A stretch of DNA of 64,000 bases from Octopus vulgaris (Eukaryota). A model generated the notes under the pieces. The model was not told where the DNA came from. It was given only the letters and a program-made list of their open reading frames with translations, and did not search any database. The DNA lies in the NCBI GenBank assembly GCA_951406725.2, contig OX597814.1, positions 171,864,001-171,928,000 on the forward strand, read 5' to 3'. This document shows positions 1,620 through 62,689 of the stretch, in pieces; position 1 is the first letter of the stretch; each line of letters starts with the position of its first letter. Position numbers and translations under genes: made by a program.

Positions 1620-1820
1620 TAGAATTTTGGCACAAGACCAGCAATTTCAGGGTCGGGAGGAAGTCGAGTATATTGACACCAGTGCTCAACTGGTACTTAT
1701 TTTATCGACTCAAAAAGGATGACAAAGTGGACCGTAGCGGAATTTGAACTCAGAACATGAAGGCGGACAAAATGCTTATCATTTTGCCCGGTGTGTTAAT
1801 GATTCTACCAGCTTGCAACC
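1620..1820 (-). mobile_element. SINE-A, diverged copy with old-type tail
   Basis: Reverse complement of the SINE-A body, tail type ...ctggtcttgtgccaaaattc. Confidence 0.75.
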
Positions 1821-1861: not shown

Positions 1862-2075
1862 TAATCCTTTCCACTGTAGGTACAAGGCCTGAAATTTAGG
1901 GGAGAGGGACAAGTCGATTAAATCGACCCCAGTGCTCAACTGGTACTTATTTCATCGACCCCGAAAGGATGAAAGGCAAAGTCAACCTCGGCGGAATTTG
2001 AACTCTGAACGTAAAGACGAACGAAATGCCGCTAATGCCCGGCGTGCTAACGATTCTTCCAACTCGCCGCCTTCA
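1862..2075 (-). mobile_element. SINE-A with old-type tail
   Basis: Reverse complement of ggcggcgagttgg...gagttcaaattccgccgagg...ggggtcgattt; tail ...aaatttcaggccttgtacct. Confidence 0.85.
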
Positions 2076-7961: not shown

Positions 7962-8565
7962 ATATGTAATATGTAGGTATGTATTGACACGGTTATATAT
8001 CTAAGTATACTTACGAGGACTTAATACTTTTTCATGGGTGGGAAGAATACAAAGCCCTGTTTGCATTTAGTTTCACTGTTTTTTACATTACCGTTGCTTT
8101 TACGAGGTAGCGGTGGTGGTGGTGGTAGAAGTCATACTGGCATAGGTTGTGTTGGTGTCAGTGGGTGTCAATGATACTGACGAAGGCGGTGTTGTCTTTC
8201 GCATTCTCTACTTCTGAATGTTATTTGTATTTGTTTTCTTGTTTTTTTTTTGTTGTTTTTTTTTGAAAGAGTGTGTTGTCTACTCGCTATTTATGTTGTT
8301 ATTTGCCTTGTTGCTGTTGTCACTGATATTTTTATCACCGCACCTGCTTTTATTCTGATGGCCTTAATTTATTTTTTTTGTTTTTGTTCATTGGATAGGT
8401 CTGCTATTTGTTGCAGTTGTTGTTGTAGTTTCTCCGACTCTCAAATTTACTGTGTTCAGAAATGTCCATGAAACTTTTGGATGGCAGAAATGATGACTGC
8501 AGGCGGATTTGTTGTAGTCAACGTTAAGAATGTTTGTTTTTGGCGGTAATAGCAGCGGCAGTAGT

Positions 8566-9110
8566 GGTGTGTAGGTGAGTAGCCTAATGGTTAAAACATT
8601 GTACTCATGATCGCGAGATCGTGGTTTCGATTCCTGGTAAGGGCGGTGCGTTGTGTTCATGAGCAAAACACTTCATTTCACGTTGCTCCTCGACCATTCC
8701 GACATCTTATTTCTTTATTGCCCACAAGGGGCTACACATAGAGGGGACAAACAAGGACAGACAAAGAGATTAAGTCGATTACATCGACCCCAGTGCGTAA
8801 CTGGTACTTATTTCATCGACTCCGAAAGGATGAAAGGCAAAGTCGACCTCAGCGGAATTTGAACTCAGAACGTAGCAGTAGACGAAATACCGCTAAACAT
8901 TTTGCCCGGCGTGCTAACGTTTCTGCCAGCTCATCGCCTGATCATTCCGACATCTGCCGTGTGGTGCACCGTAAACTTGTACTGGTAATGCTGATTGGTT
9001 GGCGGGAGTGAACTAATGTATAGTACAAGCATTTGATCATTATAAACAAACTATCTATGCTGGTTGTTCAGCAAGAAATTGCAGAACCCGCATCTATCGT
9101 CTACGAGTAG
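8566..9110 (+). mobile_element. Older tRNA-derived SINE (head related to SINE-C), interrupted by a SINE-A
   Basis: tagcctaatggttaaa (A box) and ggtttcgattcc (B box); split at cattccgacatct. Confidence 0.6.
8708..8940 (-). mobile_element. SINE-A, young Tx1-tail subfamily, nested insertion
   Basis: 13-bp duplication cattccgacatct on both sides (8695-8707 and about 8943-8955). Confidence 0.9.
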
Positions 9111-16284: not shown

Positions 16285-16350
<66 letters not shown>

Positions 16351-16378
16351 AATAGATAGATAGATAGTTAGATAGATA

Positions 16379-16562
16379 AGTTTCTTTATTGGCCACACAG
16401 GGCTGCACACAGATGGGACAAGTTACAAGGTAGAGCTTTTCTTACGGGGGATGGAAAAGACAAAAAAACAAAAGAAAAAAAAAGGGGTGGCGTAGGTTTT
16501 CGATCAAGAGGGATCGTAAAAGGGAAGAAAAGAACAAAAAAAAAAAAAAAAATAAAAAATAA
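16379..16562 (-). mobile_element. 3'-terminal fragment of the Tx1/L1-like LINE, inside (GATA)n
   Basis: Homologous to 49233-49400 (tttctttatt(g/a)gccacacagggctgcacacagat...acaaggtagagcttttctt...tttcgatcaa(g/a)agggatcgtaaaagg); gatagata on both sides. Confidence 0.85.
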
Positions 16563-16637
<75 letters not shown>

Positions 16638-17193
16638 TACATACATACATACATACATACATACATACATACATACATACATACATACATACATACATAC
16701 ATACGACACATATGTATACATGAAGTAATATATTAAACGACATTTTAGTCTCCGCGAAAGCAATTTTATACAGCGCAGTAAAGTATCCATGAAATTCTTG
16801 TTCATGAATTGTATATATTCATAACAAATCTGTGGTCTCTAAACATCCTGTCATATCCGACCACCCTCGCGACCCACCGCTCTACCTTTTCTCTATATAC
16901 AACTGTTATTTGTCGAGGCATAAATCGTATTTTTCTGTTATTGTTATTGTTTTTGCTGTTGTTATTCCAGCCCGCCAAATAGTCAACCGTCACCGTTACC
17001 GTTACCCTGGAAAATAAAAGAAAGCACTGTAGTTACAATCATTACCTTGACAACAACAAATCCTAATGATATTAATGTATACTTGGCTCAGGCGTGGCTG
17101 CGTGGTAAGAAGCTTGCTTCCCAGCAACATGATCCGGGGTTCAGTCCCACTGCCTGGCACCTTGGACAAGTGCCTTCTGCTATAATCTCAGGC

Positions 17194-17647: not shown

Positions 17648-18285
17648 AGGTGGTGAGCTGGCAGAATCGTTAGCATACCGGACAAAATGCTTAGTGGCAT
17701 TTCGTCCGTTTTTACGATCTAAGTTCGAATTCTGCTCAGGTCGACTTTGCTTTCCATTCTTTCGGGGGGGGGGGTCCATAAAATAAGTATCAGTTGAGCA
17801 CTGGGAACGATATAATCAACTTACCCATACCCCAAAATTGCTGACCTTGTGCCAAAACTTGAAATCAATATATCTTAAGGTGGCGAACTGGCAGAATCGT
17901 TAGCACTCCGAGCAAACTACTTAGCGCCATTTCGTCCGTTTTTTATAATCTTAGTTCAAATTTCCTTCCTTCCTTCCTTCTTTCCTTCTTTCTTTCTTTT
18001 TCCTTCTTTCCTTCTTTCTTTCTCTCTTTCTGCCTTCCTTCGTTCCTATCGTTCTTTCCTTCTTTCCTTCTTTCCTTCTTTCCTTCTTTCCTTCTTTCCT
18101 TCTTTCTTTCTCTCTTTCTGCCTTCCTTCTTTCCTTCTTTCTTTCCTTCTTTCTTCCTTCCTTCCTATCGTTCTTTCCTTCTTTCCTTCTTTCTTTCTCT
18201 CTTTCTGCCTTCCTTCTTTTCTTCTTTCTTTCTTTCCTTCTTTCTTTCTTTCCTTCTTTCTTCCTTCCTTCTTTCCTTCTTTCCT

Positions 18286-24830: not shown

Positions 24831-25245
24831 AGGCGGCGAGCTGGTAGAATCGTTAGCACGCCGGGCGAAATGCTTTGTGGTATTTCGTCCGCCGCTGCGT
24901 TCTGAGTTCAAATTCCGCCGAGGTCGACTTTGCCTTTCATCCTTTCGGGGTCGATTAAATAAGTACCAGTTACGAAGTGCGGTCGATATAATCGACTTAA
25001 TCCGTTTGTCTGCACTTGTTTGTCCTCTCTGTGTTTAGCCCCTTGTGGATAGTAAAGAAATAGGTATTTCGTCTGTCGTTACGTTCTGAGTTCAAATTCC
25101 GCCGAGGTTAACTTTGCCTTTCATCCTTTCGGGGTCGATTAAATAAGTACCAGTTACGCACTGGGGTCGATGTAATCGACTTAGTCCCTTTGTCTGTCCT
25201 TGTTTGTCCTCTCTATGTTTTGTCCCTTGTGGGCAATAAAGAATT
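24831..25245 (+). mobile_element. SINE-A dimer (head-body-tail-body-tail)
   Basis: Junction aaagaaata|ggtatttcgtctg at about 25062; outer duplication aatattatgacgttta on both sides. Confidence 0.9.
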
Positions 25246-32067: not shown

Positions 32068-32498
32068 AGCGGCAAGCTGGCTAAGGCGGCGAGCTGGTAG
32101 AAACATTAGCACGCCGGGCGAAATGCGTAGCCGTATTTCTTCTGCGTTACGTTCTGAGTTCAAATTCCGCCGAGGTCGACTTTGCCTTTCATCCTTTCGG
32201 GGTCGATTAAATAAGTACCAGTTACACACTGAGGTCGATGTAATCGACTTAATCCGTTTGTCTGTCCTTGTTTGTCCTCTCTGTGTTTAACCCATTGTGG
32301 GTTGTAAAGAAATAGGTATTTCGTCTGCCGCTACGTTCTGAGTTCAAATTCCGCCGAGGTCGACTTTGCCTTTCATCCTTTCGGGGTCGATAAATTAAGG
32401 ACCAGTTACGCACTGGGGTCAATATAATCGACTTAGTCCGTTTGTTTGTCCTTGTTTGTCTCCTCTGTGGGTAGCCTCTTGTGGGCAGTAAAGAAATA
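32068..32498 (+). mobile_element. SINE-A dimer with a short duplicated 5' end
   Basis: Junction aaagaaata|ggtatttcgtctgcc at about 32314; outer duplication acacttacagtcttaa. Confidence 0.9.
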
Positions 32499-37875: not shown

Positions 37876-38320
37876 GGGCGTGGCGAAGTGAGAGAATCGC
37901 TAACGCGTCAGATATAATGCATTGCAGTATTTAATAACGTTAGCACGCCGGGCGAAATGCTTAGCGGTATTTCGTCTGCCGTTACGTTGTGAGTTCAAAT
38001 TCCGCCGAGGTCGACTTTGCCTTTCATCCTTTCGGGGTCGATAAATTAAGTACCAGTTAAGCACTGGGGTCGATATAATCGACTTAATCCGTTTGTCTGT
38101 TCATGTTTGTCTCCTCTGTGTTTAGCCCCTTGTGGGTAATAAAGAAATAAGTATTTAATAACGGTTCTTTACGTTCTGAGTTCAAATTCCATCGTGGTCA
38201 ATTTTTGTATTTCATCTTTCCTGAATCGTTAAAATAAAGTCCTTGCCAAAACGGGGAAGGCAGTATAATTGACTATTCACCACTCTCAAATTTCAGGACA
38301 AGTGTTTATGTTAGAAATCA
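37876..38320 (+). mobile_element. Old SINE-A interrupted by a young SINE-A (37936-38149)
   Basis: Duplication agtatttaataacg flanks the young copy; the old copy resumes with ttctttacgttctgagttcaaattcc. Confidence 0.8.
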
Positions 38321-40615: not shown

Positions 40616-40840
40616 AGGCAGTGAGCTGGCAGAATCGTTAGCACGCCGGGCGAAGTGCTTAGCAGCATTTCGTCCGTCTTTATGTTCTGAGTTCAAATTC
40701 CGCTGAGGTCCGCTTTGCTTTTCATCCTTTCGAGGTTGATAAATGAGTGCTTGTTGAGCACTGGGGTTGATAAAATTGATTTACGCCCTCCTGCAAAATT
40801 TTGGGTTTTATGTTTAAAGTAGAAAAGATTATTATTATTA
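40616..40840 (+). mobile_element. SINE-A with old-type tail, flanked by (ATT)n on both sides
   Basis: Full head and body; ends ...aaagtagaaaagattattattatt. Confidence 0.85.
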
Positions 40841-41965: not shown

Positions 41966-43111
41966 CCATTTAATATACATATCAATCTTGATGGAGCGTA
42001 TATTTGATCCAAGTCGTTCCAGCTGTGGCCATTCCTGCTACTTTGTATATGGGTGATTACATTGTTCAATGTATGGACCATTGTTCAATGTAAAGAAGAG
42101 AGTGAAGATTGACGAAAGCACTCGGCAGCCATTTTGCCGGTCTCATGTATGTGTGTGTGTTTGTGTGTGTGTGTGTATATATATATATGTGTGTGTATAC
42201 ACACAAACATATATATATATATATATATACATATATACATATAATATATATATAGTATATATGTATATACAGAGAGAGAGTGTGTGTATATATGTATAAT
42301 TGTGTGTGCTGTGTTTGTGTACTCAGATGTGTGTGTGTGTGTGTATAAGCACATACATATGATATATATATATAACAAAAGGACACATATGCACATGTCT
42401 CTATGTGTGTATAAATAAATAGGTACGTATATATATACTCATGGATAAATATATGTTTATATATGTATATATATACACTTATATATATATATATGTGTGT
42501 GTGTATGCGCGCGGTTGTGAGTGTGTGAGTGCATGCATGTATATATATATGTGTGTGTATATTTATGCATATATATATATATATATAGCGCATACAAACG
42601 CACAAATATACACCAACACACGTATACACGCACACATCCCCACTCTCACTGACAGCCAATCCATCATGAAGAAGAAAAAGAGACTCGACTGTAGAATTAG
42701 ACGGAAGGACAAGTCGAGTAAAGTGGCGGTTAGGTGAGTTGTGGCAAATGCGATAATGGTGGTTGAGGGCAGCTTGCAATCGCACAGAGACATATGTCGA
42801 AGGCCTGTGTAACGAGGGCGCATTGGAAAGCCTGCAGGGATCCATGGCAAAAATACGGAGAACAATAAAACAAATAATGTGGTATAGGCAGTAGGTGCGC
42901 CTGGCTGGTTGGCTGGCTGGCTGGCTGAGTGTATACGTAGGAAGATATATGTGTTTATGAATTATACCTTACACGTATGTTATGTGTGTGAATTTGCAAC
43001 CTATCTCTGTGTAAGTATGTATGTATCTATCTTATGTATCTATGCATTTGTGAGTGTATATGTGGGGGCATATACTCTTATGCACGCACGCGTGCATACA
43101 CACACACATAA

Positions 43112-44713: not shown

Positions 44714-46705
44714 ATATGATATAGAGTTGATATTAGAAATCAGTTTAGGATTCTAACTGTTACCACTCAGATTTTTCACATTCGTCTAGACGTATGCGTG
44801 GGCTCGTCCAGGCAATATTTGGTGAATGGAAGTAACATAGCATCAGTGGCAAACTAGTTTAGCTAATACTCATTGATCAAGGTGTAAGAAGTGATCCAGT
44901 ATATAGAAGCCAAGAAATATCCTTATTGCTTGACAGTTATTGTGTAAAAAAAAAAGAACTCGATTCCGACCTAGAATCACCTGGAGGAAGGTGCTTCACG
45001 ATGTACAGAATCGTTTGGGTGTGTGGTGAATCGTCACTCCGTAGATTTCTGAAATTATGGAAGCTTTTCAGGGAGAATTTTTGTTCTCTGATGATGATGA
45101 TGATGATAAGGTAATACACCTCTGATATACGTTTGTGATATCACTGGATGTTTTAATATGTGCGACTTCTTAGTTGTGCATAGCTAGATTTTGGGAACTC
45201 AGTTTGTTGCAAAGTATCAAAGCCGATAATGGTTCTCTTTTAAAACCTGCGATCTTTGAATTTTCAGTCGAATTGGAACAAGATCGAGGAAGTAGTCCTG
45301 TCAGTACTTCTTCAAAATATTATAAATATGCTGTATGTCCTTACTTTGGAAAGGCAAAAAACCCTTTGATTAGGCAGAAAGAGAAATTTCTATAGCTTCT
45401 AGTAGGCTCTTGGAATGCCAACTCACTTATAACTGATGTTGACCGAGCAGGAATAGATGTCCTTAATGTTACTGGTCTCAAATGGATTGTTTTATTTGTA
45501 TTATAGGTGGGAACTATCTTAGCAGAGACACTACATCCCTAGCAATACTAGTAGCAACATTTAGAATGAATAGTGGAGAAAACCAAGTTACCTTCATGTT
45601 TCTCACACACACTAACACTCAGAAATAAAAGAATATATTTTTGAGGTATAAATTATTACTGATTTACTCATATTAATAGGTTCTTACGTTGCACACCAAT
45701 CTTGGAATCTGTATGGTTACTCTCGTCAAGCTCCTCGAACTAAACTCATATAGAAACTGAGAGTTGAGTATTATATGATACGTATACATGGGTTACATAT
45801 GTATCAAACGCACAAAAATCACGCACGTGCACACAAACAATTTGCAAAATCTGTGTCAATACATGCAGAAACTGTGTACGTTTGTAAAATATGGTTATAA
45901 TATAGTGTCATACATTAACTGGTGTATGTATTCCTTTACATACTTGTCGGTGTATCTTTCTATCTTAATTCCAGTTATACATCTATACATGTATACCGTT
46001 ATGTTATGATATAATATCATAATATATTGTGTTGCTAATATCATTGTATTATCTCTGAGGTGCAGGTATGCTTCATATCATACTTAGCATGTATTAATCT
46101 CAAGACGAGCAACAATTCTTTTTCTCTTCTACTAAAGCAGCACTCGTCTTCCGTATGTAGACAGATTCAGTAACTTGTTAAAATGACGGATCTGTGGGTG
46201 CGTGTATAGGATTCACAAGCTATCCTTGTTTATCAACCTGTCATGTGTATTTTTTTCAAGGCAGTTAGCAAAGTAGAAGCGCTAGTTTCTTTTCATTGCT
46301 TGTGTACATGTGCTTCACAAATACCTCAAGTGTATTATGGCTACATCTTACCTATAAATAAACGTATTGCTTCTACACATATGCACACAAATATACAACA
46401 CAAGTATACGTGAACAAAGAGACTTACACATATCCATACGTTGTTACGTAGACTAACATCTATGGCCTCCCTCACCGCCACCACTATCTCCAATTGGAAC
46501 ACAACGCCAATATATAATGTACAAAGAGCAAAGAGAAAACGTAAATGATAAGTTCGTGGGAAAGACTACATACGTATAAATAATATCGACAGCAAAGTCA
46601 TTTAATAACAAAGAGTGCATGTCATTTCCTTGAAAGAACGACACTTCCCAATTATACTGATATTGCATTCAGCACACTATTTCATATTCATAACCTTGCG
46701 AAATA

Positions 46706-47049
46706 AGGCGGCGAGCTGACAGAATCGTTAGCACGCCGGGCGAAACGCTTAGTGGTATTTCGTCTGCCGCACTGGGGTCGATATAATCGACTTAATCCGT
46801 TTGTCTGTCCTTGCTTGTCCTCTCTGTGTTTAGCCCCTTGTGGGTAGTAAAGAAATAGGTATTTCGTCTGCCGCTACGTTCTGAGTTCAAATTCCGCCGA
46901 GGTTGACTTTGCCTTTCATCCTTTCGGCGTCGATTAAATAAATACCAGTTACGCACTGTCCTTGTTTGTCCCCTCTGAGTTTAGGCCCTTGTGGGTAGTA
47001 AAGAAATAGGTATTTCACCCGTTTTTACTTTCTAAATTCAAATTCCGCT
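46706..47049 (+). mobile_element. Nested SINE-A trimer
   Basis: Two Tx1-type tails, each followed by ggtatttc. The outermost old-type copy continues at 48370-48490. Confidence 0.85.
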
Positions 47050-49016: not shown

Positions 49017-49232
49017 CTACTACTACTACTACTACAGAACAGCAACATCAGACATAATGTTTCTGTTGTTGCTACTTTTGTTGTGAAACATTTGAAAGTT
49101 TTAGAAACATCGAAACCAAAGACAGATAGATGAATGAATGAATGGATGGATGGATGGATGGATGGATGGATGGATGGATGGATGGATGGATGGATGGATA
49201 CATGGATGGATGGATGGATAGATAGATAGATA

Positions 49233-50485
49233 TGTTTCTTTATTAGCCACACAGGGCTGCACACAGATAGAACAAATTACAAGGTAGAGCTTTTCTTTTG
49301 AAGGTTTAAGAAAGAAAAAAAAAAAAAAAAAGGAAGGGGGAGTTTCGATCAAAAGGGATCGTAAAAGGAGAGAAAGAGGACAAAAAAAGAGGGGTTTAAA
49401 AAAAAGGGGGGAGGAAAAAATTGATCAATAGGGATCGTTATCACAGAAATGTCAATATGAAGTGTAAAGGGGAGGACAGGTGAGGTTTACCCGTGGAAAG
49501 AAAAGCCTACGGAAAAGACCACGGTAACCTCGGTCAATGATGTCACATTTTATATTTCTTTTTTTTTTTTTTTGCAAATAAGCAACTCTCTGTTTTCGAT
49601 TTCTGGGTTCATAGGACTATGCTCAAGGTGGCTTCGTCATTCATACGTGCCATTCTTGCTACATTCACCCATCTTTTTTTAAAACATTCGCTAGACAAAA
49701 CTTGCCTCTCTACTCTCACTTTCCTTTTCAAGTGGTACTTGAAGAAGTTGATGAGAGATTGACCAGAGAGGAAAGTGTTTGTCTCCAATCCTTTCAGACG
49801 CGTCCACCAGATACATTCTTTCGCCATAGCCACAAGGATGATGAAAATAGCTCTTCCTTCCCGTTTGAAGGAAGGAGGCGTGACAATATTGACGATAGAC
49901 TCAGCTGATAAACCGACTCGTCCCACACGTGACAGCAGTTGTTCGACATAAGCCCACAGGTCGGAAATTGTTGGACACTGAACGAGTGCGTGCAGAACGG
50001 TTTCGTCGCTCTGACCGCATCTCGGGCAGGTCGGCCCCGTGTTTCTCGAGCCGTGTCTGTAGAGCTTATCCCGAACGGGTAGCGCTTCTCGGTAGCACTG
50101 CCAGGCCAGGGATCTCTGGAAGTTGTCCATGGGCCCTGGCCCGAAAGTCGTCCTGAACAGGCGGGTCAGGTACTCCTCGTCGACGTCCAGGTTCGCCCCG
50201 AGCTCGTCGTCGTACCTCCCCTCCACTAAACCCCTATAGAATGCTTTGGTTGTGTTGAAGTCACTTAAGGTCGACCCAGGACGGCAGAGTTGCTTGAGAG
50301 CAACGCGACACTCGCGGTGCCATTCGCCCTTCCTCGGCCTCTTTTTGATCCACGACTGCAGTTCGGTCATGGAGACGAGCTGCGGGAAATCGTGCCTCAC
50401 AAACGGCGACCACACCTGTTCACCGTCGTCTACATAGAGCCAGAGATGCCGCAGTCTCAGCGCGTGTCTGCGCATCATCAACCAC
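49233..50485 (-). mobile_element. 5'-truncated Tx1/L1-like LINE (ORF2 C-terminus with zf-RVT-type zinc finger, plus 3'UTR) inside (GATA)n
   Basis: Uninterrupted frame 50485-49609 contains AWQCYREALPVRDKL...TCPRCGQSDETVLHALVQC...LW...AKECIWWTR, typical of L1/Tx1 ORF2. GC-richer than its surroundings. The N-terminal part of the listed ORF is microsatellite. Confidence 0.85.
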
Positions 50486-50570
<85 letters not shown>

Positions 50571-50590
50571 GTAGATAGATAGATAGATAA

Positions 50591-50623
<33 letters not shown>

Positions 50624-50780
50624 AAGAGAGAGAAGAGAATGAGAGAGAGAGAGGCGGAGAAAGGGAGTGAGAAAGAAGAGGGAAAGATGTTAAAAGACAA
50701 ATAGTGGAGCGAGAATTGAAAAAGAAATGGGAGAGAGAGAGATAGAGAGCGAAAGAGACAGTAAGAGAGACAGACAGAGC

Positions 50781-50812
<32 letters not shown>

Positions 50813-50860
50813 AAGAGAAAGAGAAAGAATGAAAAGCAAAAGAGAAATAAAGAGACAGAT
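50486..50860. repeat. (GATA)n followed by a GA-rich tract
   Basis: Directly visible. Confidence 0.9.
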
Positions 50861-51299
50861 AGGATGGAATGGCGAAGAATGAGAGTGTGGGAGGAGAATA
50901 GGAATAGGGTGGAGACTAAGTTTGTTATTTTAGCTAACCTCTTTATGACTAAGAAAACAACGGGTACAACAACAATAGTTTCTCATTTCATAACAACAAC
51001 AACAACGACGACAAGAGCAGAAAGGGTGGCATACATACACACTTCGCCATGTCATAGGTACTGCCCCCCCTTACCTCCCTACTTCATCTATTGCTAGTAA
51101 CTTACCCCCCAGCCCCGCACACACACACGCACGCACGCACGCATATACACATACACACAGAGACACACGGAGAGTGTGAGGTCTATCTAATTATGACACG
51201 ACCACCCACGCCTCCGCCGCCGCCGTCGCTGTCGACGTCGTGGTGGTGGTGGTGGTGGTGGCAGAACGAATGAGACTAAAGACAAGAAAGAAAAAAGAC

Positions 51300-54609: not shown

Positions 54610-54820
54610 CTTTTCTGCTCTAGGCACAAGGCCCGAAATTTTTGAGGCGGGGAAGTCGATTAGATCGACCCCAGTACGCAACTGGTACTTAATTAATCGA
54701 CTCCGAATAGACAAAAAGTAACGTCGACCTCAGTGGAATTTGAACTCAGGACGTAAAGACAGACGAAATACTGCTAAGCTTTTCACCCGGCGTGCTAACT
54801 TTTCTGCCAGCTCGTTGCCC
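54610..54820 (-). mobile_element. SINE-A with old-type tail
   Basis: Reverse complement of head and body. Confidence 0.8.
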
Positions 54821-62246: not shown

Positions 62247-62660
62247 AGGCGGCGAGCTGGCAGAAACGTTAGCACGCCGGGCGAAATGCGTAGCCGTATT
62301 TCGTCTGCCGTTACGTTCTGAGTTCAAGTTCCGCCGAGGTCGACTTTGTCTTTCATCCTTTCGGGGTCGATAAATTAAGTACCAGTTACGCACTGGGGTC
62401 GATATAATCGACTTAATCTGTTTGTCTGTCCTTGTTTGTCCCCTCTGTCTGTAGCCCCTTGTGGGTAGTAAAGAAATAGATATTTCGTCTGCTGATACGT
62501 TCTGAGTTCAAATTCCGGCGAGGTCGACTTTGCCTTTCATCTTTTCGGAGTCGATTAAATAAGTACCAGTTACGCACTGAAGTCGATATAATCAACTTAG
62601 TCTCTTTGTCTGTCCTTGTTTGTCCCCTCTATGTTTAGCCCCTTGTGGGCAATAAAGAAT
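62247..62660 (+). mobile_element. SINE-A dimer
   Basis: Junction aaagaaata|gatatttcgtctg at about 62478; outer duplication atatgtatataca. Confidence 0.9.
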
Positions 62661-62689
62661 TAATATATGTATATACATGTGTTTGTGTA

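What the first reader, a model, noticed from the sequence alone, without database searches (positions are those of the whole stretch)
8710..8750. Young SINE-A subfamily carries the 3' tail of the Tx1/L1-like LINE in this window
Seen: SINE 8710-8750 (tttctttattgcccacaaggggctacacatagaggggacaa) and LINE end 16381-16421 (tttctttattggccacacagggctgcacacagatgggacaa) are 35/41 identical without gaps. Both continue to acaagg. The same end lies at about 49235 on the coding LINE copy. Both keep a short stem-loop (gccc-cttgt-gggc vs gcc-ctgtgt-ggc) just before aataaagaaa. Established: many SINEs borrow the 3' tail of the LINE that mobilises them, mostly CR1/L2/RTE; Tx1-tail partners are much less often described. 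Inference: this Tx1-like family or a close relative drives the most recent SINE-A expansion.
Basis: partly seen in the sequence, partly recalled or inferred. Interest (0 to 1): 0.72.

Follow-up and report, generated by a model that had tools for sequence, protein, structure and literature searches.

The report
SINE carrying a Tx1-type LINE tail
A very common short repeat in this probably octopod genome ends in the same 45 or so bases as a group of L1/Tx1-like jumping genes, so it likely borrows their copying enzyme; the members of that group lying in this window land in TATC repeats and are likely only cousins of the real helper.

Summary
Window 8710-8750 and 16381-16421 are 35/41 identical. 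Both stretches are the exact 3' ends of minus-strand elements. None of 1000 shuffles reaches the score.

The SINE copy (8708-8939, 13-bp target duplication) belongs to a family about 5.7% diverged from its consensus. The two LINE pieces (16381-16563; 49235-50485) belong to L1-type families with APE, RT and zf-RVT domains and a CCHC ORF1. Their Tx1 assignment rests on habit and ORF1 type; no RT tree was possible.

- **Target:** the window's LINE families sit in (TATC)n repeats. Six of 6 truncated copies have the repeat on the 5' side too. None of 32 sampled SINE ends does.
- **SINE landing sites:** 12 of 32 SINE ends abut GGTAT, and 9 of 32 sit at one fixed spot in another SINE's head.
- **Sister branch S:** this is the landing site of LINE families elsewhere in the genome (S1, 36 of 37 copies; S2, 12 of 12). 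A third, S3, has the closest tail (24/25 terminal bases).
- **Age:** S2 and S3 overlap the SINE in divergence; the window's coding copy belongs to a far younger family.

The 45-nt end is conserved across all these LINE lineages (75% identity against about 50% upstream), so it is a LINE feature that the SINE borrowed. This scan had already noted the pairing on other DNA of this genome.

The parts
8708..8939 (-). One copy of the tail-bearing SINE subfamily ('SINE-A', 232 nt), inserted into another repeat
   Evidence: It is 6.9% from the 23-copy majority consensus. It has a box-B-like GAGTTCAAATTCC motif, read by eye. ARAGORN and Rfam recognise no tRNA.
8708..8755 (-).
   Evidence: Searches give the identity to LINE ends. 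address the 4-bp hairpin.
8695..8707 (-). 3' copy of the 13-bp target-site duplication AGATGTCGGAATG
8943..8955 (-). 5' copy of the target-site duplication AGATGTCGGAATG
16381..16563 (-). 3'UTR fragment of LINE family 'T2', 80% identical to the 49235 family over 163 nt. It ends ...GTGGCCAATAAAGAAAC.
   Evidence: In one search the 39 other hits scored are 92-96% identical. In one search sister copies carry an ORF2 C-terminus 88-99.7% identical to family T.
16287..16380 (.). (GATA)n/(GACA)n tract abutting the 3' end of the T2 fragment. A second tract lies at 16564-16603 on its 5' side.
49235..50485 (-). 5'-truncated copy (1251 nt) of LINE family 'T'. ORF2 C-terminus with zf-RVT lies at 49612-50436, the stop codon at 49609-49611 and the 3'UTR at 49235-49608.
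50486..50620 (.). (TATC)n tract directly 5' of the truncated LINE-T copy. (TATC)3(CATC)n lies at about 49124-49234 on its 3' side.
24831..25243 (+). SINE-A unit joined to position ~49-55 of a second unit (...AAAGAAATA|GGTATTTCGTCTG...). The whole is flanked by one duplication.
   Evidence: The same arrangement occurs at 32084-32498, 62247-62663, 46768-47008 and 37936-38237.

Best explanation
The SINE copy at 8708-8939 (minus strand) ends in a module of about 45 nt that is homologous to the conserved 3' end of a group of site-specific L1/Tx1-like LINEs, and it was likely copied into place by an ORF2 protein of that group that recognises this module instead of a poly(A) tail.

Shown:
- The module is co-terminal in the SINE and the LINEs.
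- It is kept at 75% identity between LINE branches whose ORF2 proteins are only 52-55% identical, while the UTR just upstream is at chance level.
- Older subfamilies of the same SINE have other tails.
- The LINEs have no poly(A) tail.

The SINE therefore took the tail from a LINE, not the reverse.

Inferred: which LINE did the work. The two families in the window (T at 49235, T2 at 16381) insert into (TATC)n microsatellites, and the SINE does not. The SINE's 13-19-bp target duplications start with GGTAT in 12 of 32 sampled copies. In 9 of 32 the insertion lies at one fixed position in the head of another SINE copy.

That is the landing site of a sister branch, S:
- **S1** is young and sits at that site in 36 of 37 copies.
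- **S2** is about 7.6% diverged, and 12 of 12 copies abut [GC][GAC]TATT.
- **S3** prefers GGAT and has the tail nearest to the SINE's.

The most likely mechanism is target-primed reverse transcription by an S-branch enzyme, or an unsampled close relative. The endonuclease would nick at GGTATT-like sites. The reverse transcriptase would start on the shared hairpin-plus-AAUAAAGAAAU end. The window's T and T2 copies would be cousins that kept the same RNA handle but changed their target.
For: Tail homology:
- 35/41 identity.
- BLAST E 4.5e-8.
- 0 of 1000 shuffles reach the observed score.

SINE anatomy and age: exact 13-bp duplication. 23 full copies are 3.7-9.4% (mean 5.7%) from their consensus.

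LINE class:
- RVT_1, Exo_endo_phos and zf-RVT in both T and S1 ORF2.
- zf-CCHC in S1 ORF1.
- A CCHC motif in T ORF1 (read by eye).
- Human L1 ORF2p is the best solved relative (E 6e-53 against 2.5e-19 for R2).

T targets (TATC)n:
- 6 of 6 5'-truncated copies with the junction in view, and both full-length copies, are preceded by the repeat.
- All 12 distinct copies are followed by at least a short run of it.
- For T2, 6 of 8 copies are followed by it.

SINE targets in an unbiased 264-kb sample (window plus 20 arbitrary 10-kb stretches):
- 0 of 32 in (TATC)n.
- 12 of 32 GGTAT, against a base frequency of 0.0008.
- 17 of 32 RRTAT, against a base frequency of 0.0062.
- 9 of 32 followed by SINE body.
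- The duplications include the GGTAT at non-SINE sites.

S branch:
- S1: 36 of 37 copies at ...AAAGAAATTC|GTATTTCGTCTG in SINE heads. 3'UTR divergence is 0.3%.
- S2: 7 of 12 copies in SINE heads and 5 of 12 at other [GC][GAC]TATT sites. Median divergence is 7.6%. Decayed ORF1 and ORF2 lie upstream.
- S3: mean divergence 3.1%.

Tail identity to the SINE consensus:
- Last 25 nt: S3 variant 23-24, S3 main 21, S1/S2/T/T3/T4 20, T2 19.
- Last 45 nt: 36-40 for all lineages.

Conservation of the module: last 45 nt are 75% identical between T and S lineages, against 43% and 54% for the two 45-nt blocks upstream and 50% for shuffled sequence.

Hairpin: 92.9% of cells are paired, against at most 57% when the partner is slid. 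One pair is changed on both sides.
Against: - No experiment shows mobilisation.
- Over the whole tail the lineages hardly differ (36-40 of 45), so tail sequence alone does not single out the S branch.
- The best tail (S3) and the best target match (S1/S2) belong to different families.
- 15 of 32 SINE ends lie at sites without the RRTAT motif. S1 is almost never outside SINE heads, so either the helper was less strict or several helpers acted.
- S1 is much younger than the SINE burst.
- The LINE copies measured are the best-scoring hits of capped searches, so their ages are biased young.
- The S2 estimate rests on 12 copies, two of them truncated inside the measured stretch.
- The hairpin has no thermodynamic support (z about 0 to +1.3).
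- Its covariation is modest: 22 of 500 shuffles reach the score, and the four T-lineage rows need a register shifted by one base.
- Membership in the Tx1 clade was not tested by an RT phylogeny, because no named Tx1 reference sequence could be obtained.
Confidence: 0.62

Rival explanations
1. One reading: the (TATC)n-associated LINE family seen in this window (T/T2) is itself the enzyme source for the SINE-A expansion.
For: - The ends are co-terminal and 36-37 of 45 nt identical to the SINE consensus.
- T2 copies are moderately diverged (92-96% to the window fragment).
- 2 of 8 T2 copies are not followed by a TATC run, so the family can land elsewhere.
Against: - 0 of 32 SINE-A ends lie in (TATC)n, whereas T copies have the repeat on both sides.
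- T copies are 98-100% identical, against 5.7% divergence for the SINE.
- The T hairpin differs in stem register and loop length.
- The SINE's preferred GGTAT site is that of another branch.
Confidence: 0.1
2. The direction is reversed: the LINE lineages picked up the end of the abundant SINE, for example by template switching or by read-through from a copy sitting in a SINE, so the tail says nothing about who mobilises whom.
For: - S1 sits inside SINE copies.
- One relative upstream of the full-length copy in L014 ends in (TATC)n without the module.
- SINE copies outnumber LINE copies by orders of magnitude. I extrapolate about 340,000 SINE copies from 32 ends per 264 kb. The S1/S2 UTR 24-mer has 152 genome matches.
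Against: - The module is present, each with its own substitutions, in all eight sampled lineages or variants (T, T2, T3, T4, S1, S2, S3 main, S3 variant). Their ORF2s differ by up to 48%. That implies an origin older than the roughly 6%-diverged SINE subfamily.
- Older subfamilies of the SINE have different tails.
Confidence: 0.08
3. The shared 'target' is an artefact: SINE dimers and stacks arise by tandem duplication, unequal exchange or amplification of a dimeric master copy. The GGTAT after the SINE end would then be carried along rather than chosen.
For: - Several dimers are flanked as a whole by one duplication.
- The first unit runs seamlessly from head to tail.
- A five-unit stack exists in L113.
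Against: - At non-SINE sites the GGTAT lies inside the target duplication on both sides: L038:559, L045:3370, and window 29903 and 35804.
- The downstream units include older, diverged subfamilies (window 37936 and 46956).
- Two LINE families use the same nucleotide position.
Confidence: 0.07
4. Chance or convergence: both ends merely contain a polyadenylation-like AATAAA and a GC-rich hairpin.
For: The region is short and holds AATAAA. The predicted fold is no more stable than shuffles.
Against: - 0 of 1000 shuffles reach the alignment score.
- Identity extends about 45 nt upstream of AATAAA across eight LINE lineages or variants.
Confidence: 0.01

Closest known systems
Crocodilian SINEU with Tx1-Mar LINEs (Kojima 2015, PMC4494074; abstract and passages read)
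   Same: A SINE is tied to site-specific Tx1-type LINEs. Shared target preference is the argument for who mobilises it, and the ages are compared in the same way.
   Different: - There the link is the shared target (a Mariner transposon) and shared snRNA-derived heads. Here there is in addition a shared, conserved 3' tail.
- The head here looks tRNA-like.
- The target here is a motif in the SINE's own head.
Stringent L1-clade SINE/LINE pairs: maize ZmSINE2/ZmSINE3 with LINE1-1_ZM, and Chlamydomonas SINEX-3_CR with L1-1_CR (Ohshima 2012, PMC3472496, passages read; Ohshima 2013, PMC3747384, passages read)
   Same: - An L1-group LINE lineage keeps a conserved last ~45 nt while the rest diverges. 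The paper gives divergence of 0.144 for that region against 0.570 for the entire LINE sequence. Here identity is 75% against about 50%.
- There is a small stem-loop with compensatory changes.
- The SINEs carry the same end.
   Different: - Those are plants and an alga; this is an animal genome.
- The LINEs here are target-specific and lack poly(A).
- The support for the hairpin here is modest.
Microsatellite-targeting Tx1 families: Kibi (TC)n, Koshi (TTC)n, and crocodilian Tx1 on (TTCC)n/(TTTC)n (as described in PMC4494074, passages read)
   Same: The window's LINE families T and T2 have the microsatellite on both sides, including at 5'-truncated copies.
   Different: The repeat unit here is TATC/GATA. 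No SINE sharing that target was seen here.
Classic tail-sharing SINE/LINE pairs of CR1, L2 and RTE type (Kajikawa and Okada 2002, as cited in PMC4494074; details recalled, not read)
   Same: The SINE's 3' end derives from the partner LINE, and recognition of a 3' stem-loop by the RT is the accepted mechanism.
   Different: The LINE clade differs (L1 group). These LINEs also have sequence-specific targets, which give an independent handle on the partner.

Membership tests
SINE/LINE pair with a shared 3' tail (stringent-type recognition) | The 3'-terminal sequence of the SINE is homologous to, and co-terminal with, that of the LINE | tested here: met
   35/41 identity. 36-40 of the last 45 nt match eight LINE lineages or variants. 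0 of 1000 shuffles reach the score.
SINE/LINE pair with a shared 3' tail (stringent-type recognition) | The tail is conserved among related LINEs beyond the rest of the 3'UTR | tested here: met
   T-against-S pairs are 75% identical in the last 45 nt. The two upstream 45-nt blocks give 43% and 54%, and shuffled sequence gives 50%.
SINE/LINE pair with a shared 3' tail (stringent-type recognition) | A stem-loop in the tail is kept by compensatory changes | tested here: inconclusive
   A 4-bp stem is paired in 92.9% of cells, against at most 57% when slid. One pair is changed on both sides, and 22 of 500 shuffles reach the covariation score. The T rows need a shifted register. MFE z is about 0.
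SINE/LINE pair with a shared 3' tail (stringent-type recognition) | Overlapping periods of activity | tested here: inconclusive
   SINE-A is 3.7-9.4% diverged. S2 has a median of 7.6% and S3 ranges 1.1-6.1%, so these overlap. S1 is 0.3% diverged, and T copies are 98-100% identical to one another, so these do not. The LINE samples are best hits only.
SINE/LINE pair with a shared 3' tail (stringent-type recognition) | The LINE protein mobilises the SINE in trans, dependent on the tail | not testable with these tools
   This needs a retrotransposition assay.
Tx1 clade (L1 group) of non-LTR retrotransposons | ORF2 with an APE endonuclease and an L1-type RT | tested here: met
   Pfam finds Exo_endo_phos, RVT_1 and zf-RVT. 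Human L1 ORF2p is the best solved match at E 6e-53, covering residues 6-877.
Tx1 clade (L1 group) of non-LTR retrotransposons | The RT domain groups with Tx1 references in a phylogeny | not testable with these tools
   No named Tx1 or L1 reference came back, and Repbase is not on hand. Indirect support only: L1-Tx1 is the only L1-type class listed among recently active LINEs of Octopus vulgaris (PMC13282606, Table 1 passage read).
Tx1 clade (L1 group) of non-LTR retrotransposons | Target-specific insertion | tested here: met
   T sits in (TATC)n. S1 sits at one site in the SINE head in 36 of 37 copies. S2 abuts [GC][GAC]TATT in 12 of 12 copies. S3 abuts GGAT in 18 of 28 copies, and 10 of 28 lie in one repeat.
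Tx1 clade (L1 group) of non-LTR retrotransposons | ORF1 of the CCHC-knuckle (Type I-like) kind rather than the mammalian Transposase_22 kind | tested here: met
   zf-CCHC in S1 ORF1 at E 7e-5. A C-x2-C-x4-H-x4-C motif in T ORF1, read by eye, with no Pfam hit for T ORF1. The criterion comes from PMC5203782 (passages read).
tRNA-derived SINE | A tRNA-like head with internal A and B boxes | tested here: inconclusive
   A box-B-like GAGTTCAAATTCC is seen by eye. ARAGORN finds no tRNA and Rfam has no match at E up to 1. The literature calls the main octopus SINEs tRNA-Core and tRNA-Deu (PMC8967140, passage read). Which of these this family is was not tested.
tRNA-derived SINE | A short non-coding element flanked by target-site duplications, in many copies | tested here: met
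   The consensus is 232 nt. Duplications of 10-19 bp or longer were recovered for 13 of 23 full copies. There are 32 tail-bearing ends in 264 kb.
SINE sharing its LINE's target site (SINEU/Tx1-Mar type) | SINE and LINE insertions pile up at the same sequence position | tested here: met
   The SINE junction is ...AAAGAAATA|GGTATTTCGTCTG in 9 of 32 copies. S1 is ...AAAGAAATTC|GTATTTCGTCTG in 36 of 37. S2 is ...AAAGAAATT|GGTATTTCG in SINE heads in 7 of 12. This is not met for the window's T/T2 families.

The most novel reading that the evidence does not exclude
One clade of Tx1-like LINEs has split into lineages with different landing sites: (TATC)n, GGTATT in the head of the genome's commonest SINE, and GGAT in another repeat. 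All keep one 45-nt RNA handle. The SINE stole that handle and at the same time supplies, in its own head, hundreds of thousands of landing pads for the lineage that copies it. Parasite and helper would thus feed each other and build head-to-tail stacks. In an animal this would be a stringent, hairpin-read L1-group system in which target choice and template choice can be separated.
Probability: 0.4. Interest if true: 0.7.

Novelty: new member of a known kind. Interest (0 to 1): 0.45.

Why it matters
SINEs make up more than a tenth of octopus genomes (11.6% in PMC13282606, passage read), yet I found no paper naming the LINE that moves them. A search for octopus, SINE and 'LINE partner' returned 0 papers. 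Tx1 and SINE searches returned only the crocodilian and plant cases.

A tail shared with L1/Tx1-type elements would add an animal example of stringent 3'-end recognition in the L1 group. That group is mostly known for poly(A)-based, relaxed recognition.

The related LINE lineages here have different, easily scored landing sites. Insertion-site statistics can therefore tell which lineage moved the SINE, which makes the question testable from genome data and with standard retrotransposition assays.

For this particular finding the practical message is narrower. The tail match is real, but the neighbouring LINE is a cousin, not the driver.

Tried and rejected
- **Combined pattern search.** I searched the genome for the T-type 3'UTR motif, the tail and the SINE-head site together. 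It gave 0 matches, so no T-type LINE was seen at the SINE-head site. The pattern was exact and narrow.
- **Named references for an RT tree.** The search for homologous proteins returned 312 relatives. The best named one was an Argonauta hians hypothetical protein (66% identity), and none was named Tx1 or L1. The protein atlas gave only unnamed RVT_1/Exo_endo_phos/zf-RVT clusters. No tree was built.
- **'Older' S1 copies.** Eight S1 hits at 92-96% identity have the same tail and target as the young ones. Their lower identity probably comes from the A-rich stretch. They are not an older layer.
- **A third lineage in a random stretch.** L035 is 45% identical to T ORF2, but it showed no recognisable tail downstream. 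It is probably decayed and was not used.
- **Thermodynamic support for the hairpin.** None was found.
- **tRNA origin of the head.** There was no ARAGORN or Rfam hit.
- **A miscount.** The binomial figures used my miscounts (14 and 18 of 32). One search gives the correct counts (12 and 17 of 32) and replaces them.
- **Papers not followed up.** The bivalve SINE paper PMC11481361 could not be searched, because two calls failed on term format, and I did not pursue it. No supplementary tables of any paper were read. Table 1 of PMC3747384 (58 SINE/LINE pairs) was not seen and might list a Tx1 pair.
Full report
**1. What is at the coordinates**

Window 8710-8750 and 16381-16421 are 35/41 identical without gaps. 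A third copy starts at 49235 and is 32/41 identical to the first and 38/41 to the second. All three make sense on the minus strand.

The first is the 3' end of a 232-nt SINE copy at 8939-8708.
- It has a box-B-like GAGTTCAAATTCC motif, read by eye.
- It ends ...GCCCCTTGTGGGCAATAAAGAAATA with no poly(A).
- It is flanked by an exact 13-bp duplication, AGATGTCGGAATG, at 8955-8943 and 8707-8695.
- ARAGORN and Rfam do not call the head a tRNA.

The second and third are 3' ends of LINE pieces.
- 16563-16381 is a fragment of 3'UTR.
- 50485-49235 is a 1251-nt 5'-truncated copy. It holds the last 275 residues of an ORF2 with a zf-RVT domain, plus a 374-nt 3'UTR.
- Both end ...GTGGC[CT]AATAAAGAAAC and run straight into (TATC)n-type repeat.

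The match is not chance.
- BLAST within the window gives E 4.5e-8 and 2.8e-4.
- None of 1000 dinucleotide-preserving shuffles of either LINE UTR reaches the observed local score: 30 against a maximum of 16, and 24 against a maximum of 19.

**2. The genome and the LINE of the window**

The window lies in a 2.8-Gb assembly of 227 contigs. The best named protein relative is from the octopod Argonauta hians, so the genome is probably an octopod's.

The 49235 family, which I call T, is very young. The 40 best of 1138 candidate matches are 98-100% identical to the window copy.

A full-length copy (L014) is about 6.2 kb.
- Its ORF1 is a 686-codon frame open from stop to stop, with a CCHC motif read by eye.
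- Its ORF2 is an 1149-codon frame with Exo_endo_phos, RVT_1 and zf-RVT.
- Among solved structures, human L1 ORF2p is the best match (E 6e-53, residues 6-877), well ahead of R2 proteins at 2.5e-19.

This places the element in the L1 group. I could not make the RT tree that defines the Tx1 clade, because no named reference came back. Three things support 'Tx1-like':
- The ORF1 is of the CCHC type. PMC5203782 (passages read) links this type to Tx1.
- Insertion is site-specific.
- L1-Tx1 is the only L1-type class among recently active LINEs listed for Octopus vulgaris (PMC13282606, Table 1 passage read).

**3. Family T inserts into (TATC)n**

I looked at 12 distinct copies.
- All are followed by at least a short TATC/CATC run.
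- All 6 5'-truncated copies with the 5' junction in view are directly preceded by (TATC)n. They are truncated at positions 888, 4034, 4313, 4828, 4916 and 4941 of 6225.
- Both full-length copies are preceded by it too.

The window copy shows the same arrangement, with repeat at 50486-50620 and at about 49124-49234.

The 16381 fragment belongs to a sister family, T2.
- Its ORF2 C-terminus is 88-99.7% identical to T.
- The 39 other hits scored are 92-96% identical to the window fragment.
- 6 of 8 fetched copies are followed by the repeat and 2 of 8 are not.

This is the habit described for Kibi, Koshi and some crocodilian Tx1 families (PMC4494074, passages read), with a different repeat unit.

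**4. The SINE family**

In the window, many copies match the SINE along its whole length. Others match only up to about position 170 and then carry different ends. Those ends are ...GGCCTTGTGCC...AGAAAGGA(TTA)n and ...GGCCTTGTGCCAAAATTTGAAATCAAT(ATT)n.

For unbiased numbers I added 20 arbitrary 10-kb stretches from other contigs, giving 264 kb in all.
- This holds 32 tail-bearing 3' ends, 18 of them in the window.
- 23 full copies are 3.7-9.4% from their majority consensus, with mean 5.7% and JC distance 0.059.
- That is close to the SINE/LINE wave at JC 0.065 reported for O. vulgaris (PMC13282606, passage read).

**5. Where the SINE lands**

- None of the 32 ends lies in (TATC)n.
- 12 of 32 are followed by GGTAT, against a base frequency of 0.0008.
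- 17 of 32 are followed by RRTAT, against 0.0062.
- 9 of 32 are followed by the body of another SINE from its position ~49-55 onward...AAAGAAATA|GGTATTTCGTCTG....

At non-SINE sites the GGTAT lies inside the 15-17-bp target duplication on both sides, so it belongs to the target and not to the element. The other 15 ends lie at assorted, mostly A/T-rich or AGA-type sites. The copy under study (AGATGTCGG) is one of these.

The window's 'dimers' are insertions of this kind: 24831-25243, 32084-32498, 62247-62663, 46768-47008 and 37936-38237. In two of them the downstream unit is an older, diverged subfamily.

**6. A sister LINE branch with that landing site**

A note from this scan (e1-8670513) pointed to a place 18 Mb away, which I fetched and checked myself.

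*Family S1*
- It is about 5.4 kb, with frames open from stop to stop of 451 (ORF1) and 1134 (ORF2) codons in copy L026. The ORF2 has the same domains as T, and the ORF1 has zf-CCHC.
- Its ORF2 is 55% identical to that of T over 1134 aligned positions.
- I examined 38 of the 40 scored hits and found the tail in 37. In 36 of those 37 it is followed by TTC|GTATTTCGTCTG plus SINE body, at the same nucleotide position that the SINE itself uses. Two of the 36 share identical flank variants and may be one duplicated locus.
- The ten full-length copies also have the SINE head directly 5'.
- The flanking SINE halves differ more between loci than the LINE does, so they look like pre-existing copies.
- S1 is very young: 0.3% divergence in the 3'UTR, n=13.

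*Subfamily S2*
- A 24-mer of the S1 UTR has 152 genome matches at up to 3 mismatches. Most one-mismatch matches share one change and define an older subfamily, S2.
- All 12 S2 copies have [GC][GAC]TATT after ...AAAGAAATT. 7 are in SINE heads and 5 are elsewhere.
- Median 3'UTR divergence is 7.6%. The range is 3.5-30%, with the top values from two copies truncated inside the measured stretch. Decayed ORF1 and ORF2 lie upstream.

*Family S3*
- I found it by chance in locus L112. Its ORF2 is 62% identical to S1 and 52% to T.
- Its mean divergence is 3.1%, with a range of 1.1-6.1% (n=30).
- It prefers GGAT (18 of 28 copies), and 10 of 28 copies lie in one and the same repeat.

**7. Whose tail is it?**

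Matches to the SINE consensus:

| Lineage | Last 45 nt | Last 25 nt |
|---|---|---|
| S3 variant | 40 | 23-24 |
| S3 main | 39 | 21 |
| T3 | 39 | 20 |
| T4 | 38 | 20 |
| S2 | 37 | 20 |
| T2 | 37 | 19 |
| S1 | 36 | 20 |
| T | 36 | 20 |

Tail sequence thus favours S3 mildly and does not separate the rest.

Between T and S lineages the last 45 nt are 75% identical. The two 45-nt blocks upstream are 43% and 54% identical, and shuffled sequence gives 50%. The same pattern was used to argue for stringent recognition in a monocot L1 lineage (PMC3472496, passages read). It also fixes the direction of transfer. The module is older than the split of LINE branches whose proteins differ by about 45%, so the SINE took it from a LINE.

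**8. The hairpin**

All ends can form a 4-bp stem next to AAUAAAG:

| Element | 5' arm | Loop | 3' arm |
|---|---|---|---|
| SINE, S3 variant | GCCC | CUUGU | GGGY |
| S1, S2 | GCCC | CCGGU | GGGC |
| S3 main | GGCC | CUUGU | GGCU |
| T lineages (5' arm shifted one base) | AGCC | CUGUGU | GGCU |

- On 14 natural ends, 92.9% of cells pair, against at most 57% when the partner is slid.
- One pair changes on both sides (C-G to G-C).
- 22 of 500 shuffles reach the covariation score.
- The fold is no more stable than shuffles.

I treat the hairpin as plausible, not shown.

**9. Reading**

*Shown*
- The tail is a conserved LINE module borrowed by the SINE.
- The window's LINEs are (TATC)n-seeking.
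- The SINE is not.
- The SINE shares a precise landing site with the S1/S2 LINEs.
- S2 and S3 overlap the SINE in divergence.

*Inferred*
- An S-branch enzyme, or an unsampled relative, mobilised the SINE by target-primed reverse transcription started on this module.

*Open*
- The best tail (S3) and the best target (S1/S2) belong to different families.
- About half of the SINE copies lie outside the motif.
- The LINE ages come from best-hit samples.

**10. What is known**

Tail sharing between SINEs and LINEs is textbook. For the L1 group the examples I could read are from maize, sorghum and Chlamydomonas (PMC3472496). For Tx1 the known SINE link is SINEU/Tx1-Mar, which was argued from shared targets (PMC4494074). 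My searches found no paper on an octopus SINE's LINE partner. Repbase, Dfam and SINEBase could not be consulted, and no supplements were read.

This scan had already reported the same pairing, the (TATC)n habit and the SINE-head targeting on other DNA of this genome. Those notes gave me one locus and agree with what I tested. They are not independent evidence.

**Verdict**

This is a new member of a known kind, of moderate interest.

Noticed in passing
window 24831-25243, 32084-32498, 62247-62663, 46703-47008, 37936-38237; L113:1561-2496: SINE units are joined head-to-body at position ~49-55 (...AAAGAAATA|GGTATTTCGTCTG). They form dimers, and in L113 a five-unit stack. Some dimers are flanked as a whole by one target duplication, which would fit 5' joining by homology with the target SINE.
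   Followed up: partly
window 1911-2072(-), 54653-54814(-), 40616-40783(+), 17648-17823(+), 1661-1816(-): Older subfamilies of the same SINE share head and body up to about position 168 but carry other tails ending in (TTA)n or (ATT)n. Both tail types contain GGC-CTTGT-GCC. That is the same loop as the SINE-A hairpin, with the stem letters swapped. Their partner LINE was not sought.
   Followed up: partly
window 8565-8707 and 8956-9030 (+ strand): The SINE-A copy sits inside another repeat whose start looks tRNA-like (GTAGCCTAATGGTTAAAAC...GGTTTCGATTCC). This appears to be a second SINE family, which I did not characterise.
   Followed up: no
L014 (G000:C15:38164950-38173950, minus strand): This full-length T copy has both reading frames open. 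The window's truncated copy is reported as 100% identical (rounded) over 1166 nt to copies on two other contigs. The family was therefore active very recently.
   Followed up: partly
L014, about 200 nt 5' of the full-length copy: A remnant of a related LINE 3'UTR ends ...GATCGAAATTCTACCACACTTTTTTC and runs straight into (TATC)n without the shared terminal module. This is either a lineage without the module or a deleted copy.
   Followed up: no
L124, L132, L134, L135, L137-L139, L141-L143 (3' flanks): Ten of 28 S3 copies are followed by the same sequence (G/A)GATGTAGAGGGTTTGTTGGACACAG... The S3 family therefore seems to target a specific site in yet another repeat family, which I did not identify.
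   Followed up: no
L104 and L107 (3' flanks): Two S2 copies abut the same non-SINE sequence GGTATTGCGTC[AT]GTGTGAGTTGGAAGTG. This may be a further repeat that carries the GGTATT motif.
   Followed up: no
window 42066-42968(-), 16386-16838(-), upstream part of 49609-50982(-): The long 'ORFs' in these stretches are translations of microsatellites and low-complexity DNA (for example IYLSIYLS from TATC repeats), not genes.
   Followed up: yes
L035:2865-4135 (G000:C6:40000001-40010000, minus strand): This is a further L1-type ORF2 remnant, 45% identical to T and 39% to S1. No recognisable terminal module lies downstream, and it is probably an older lineage.
   Followed up: partly
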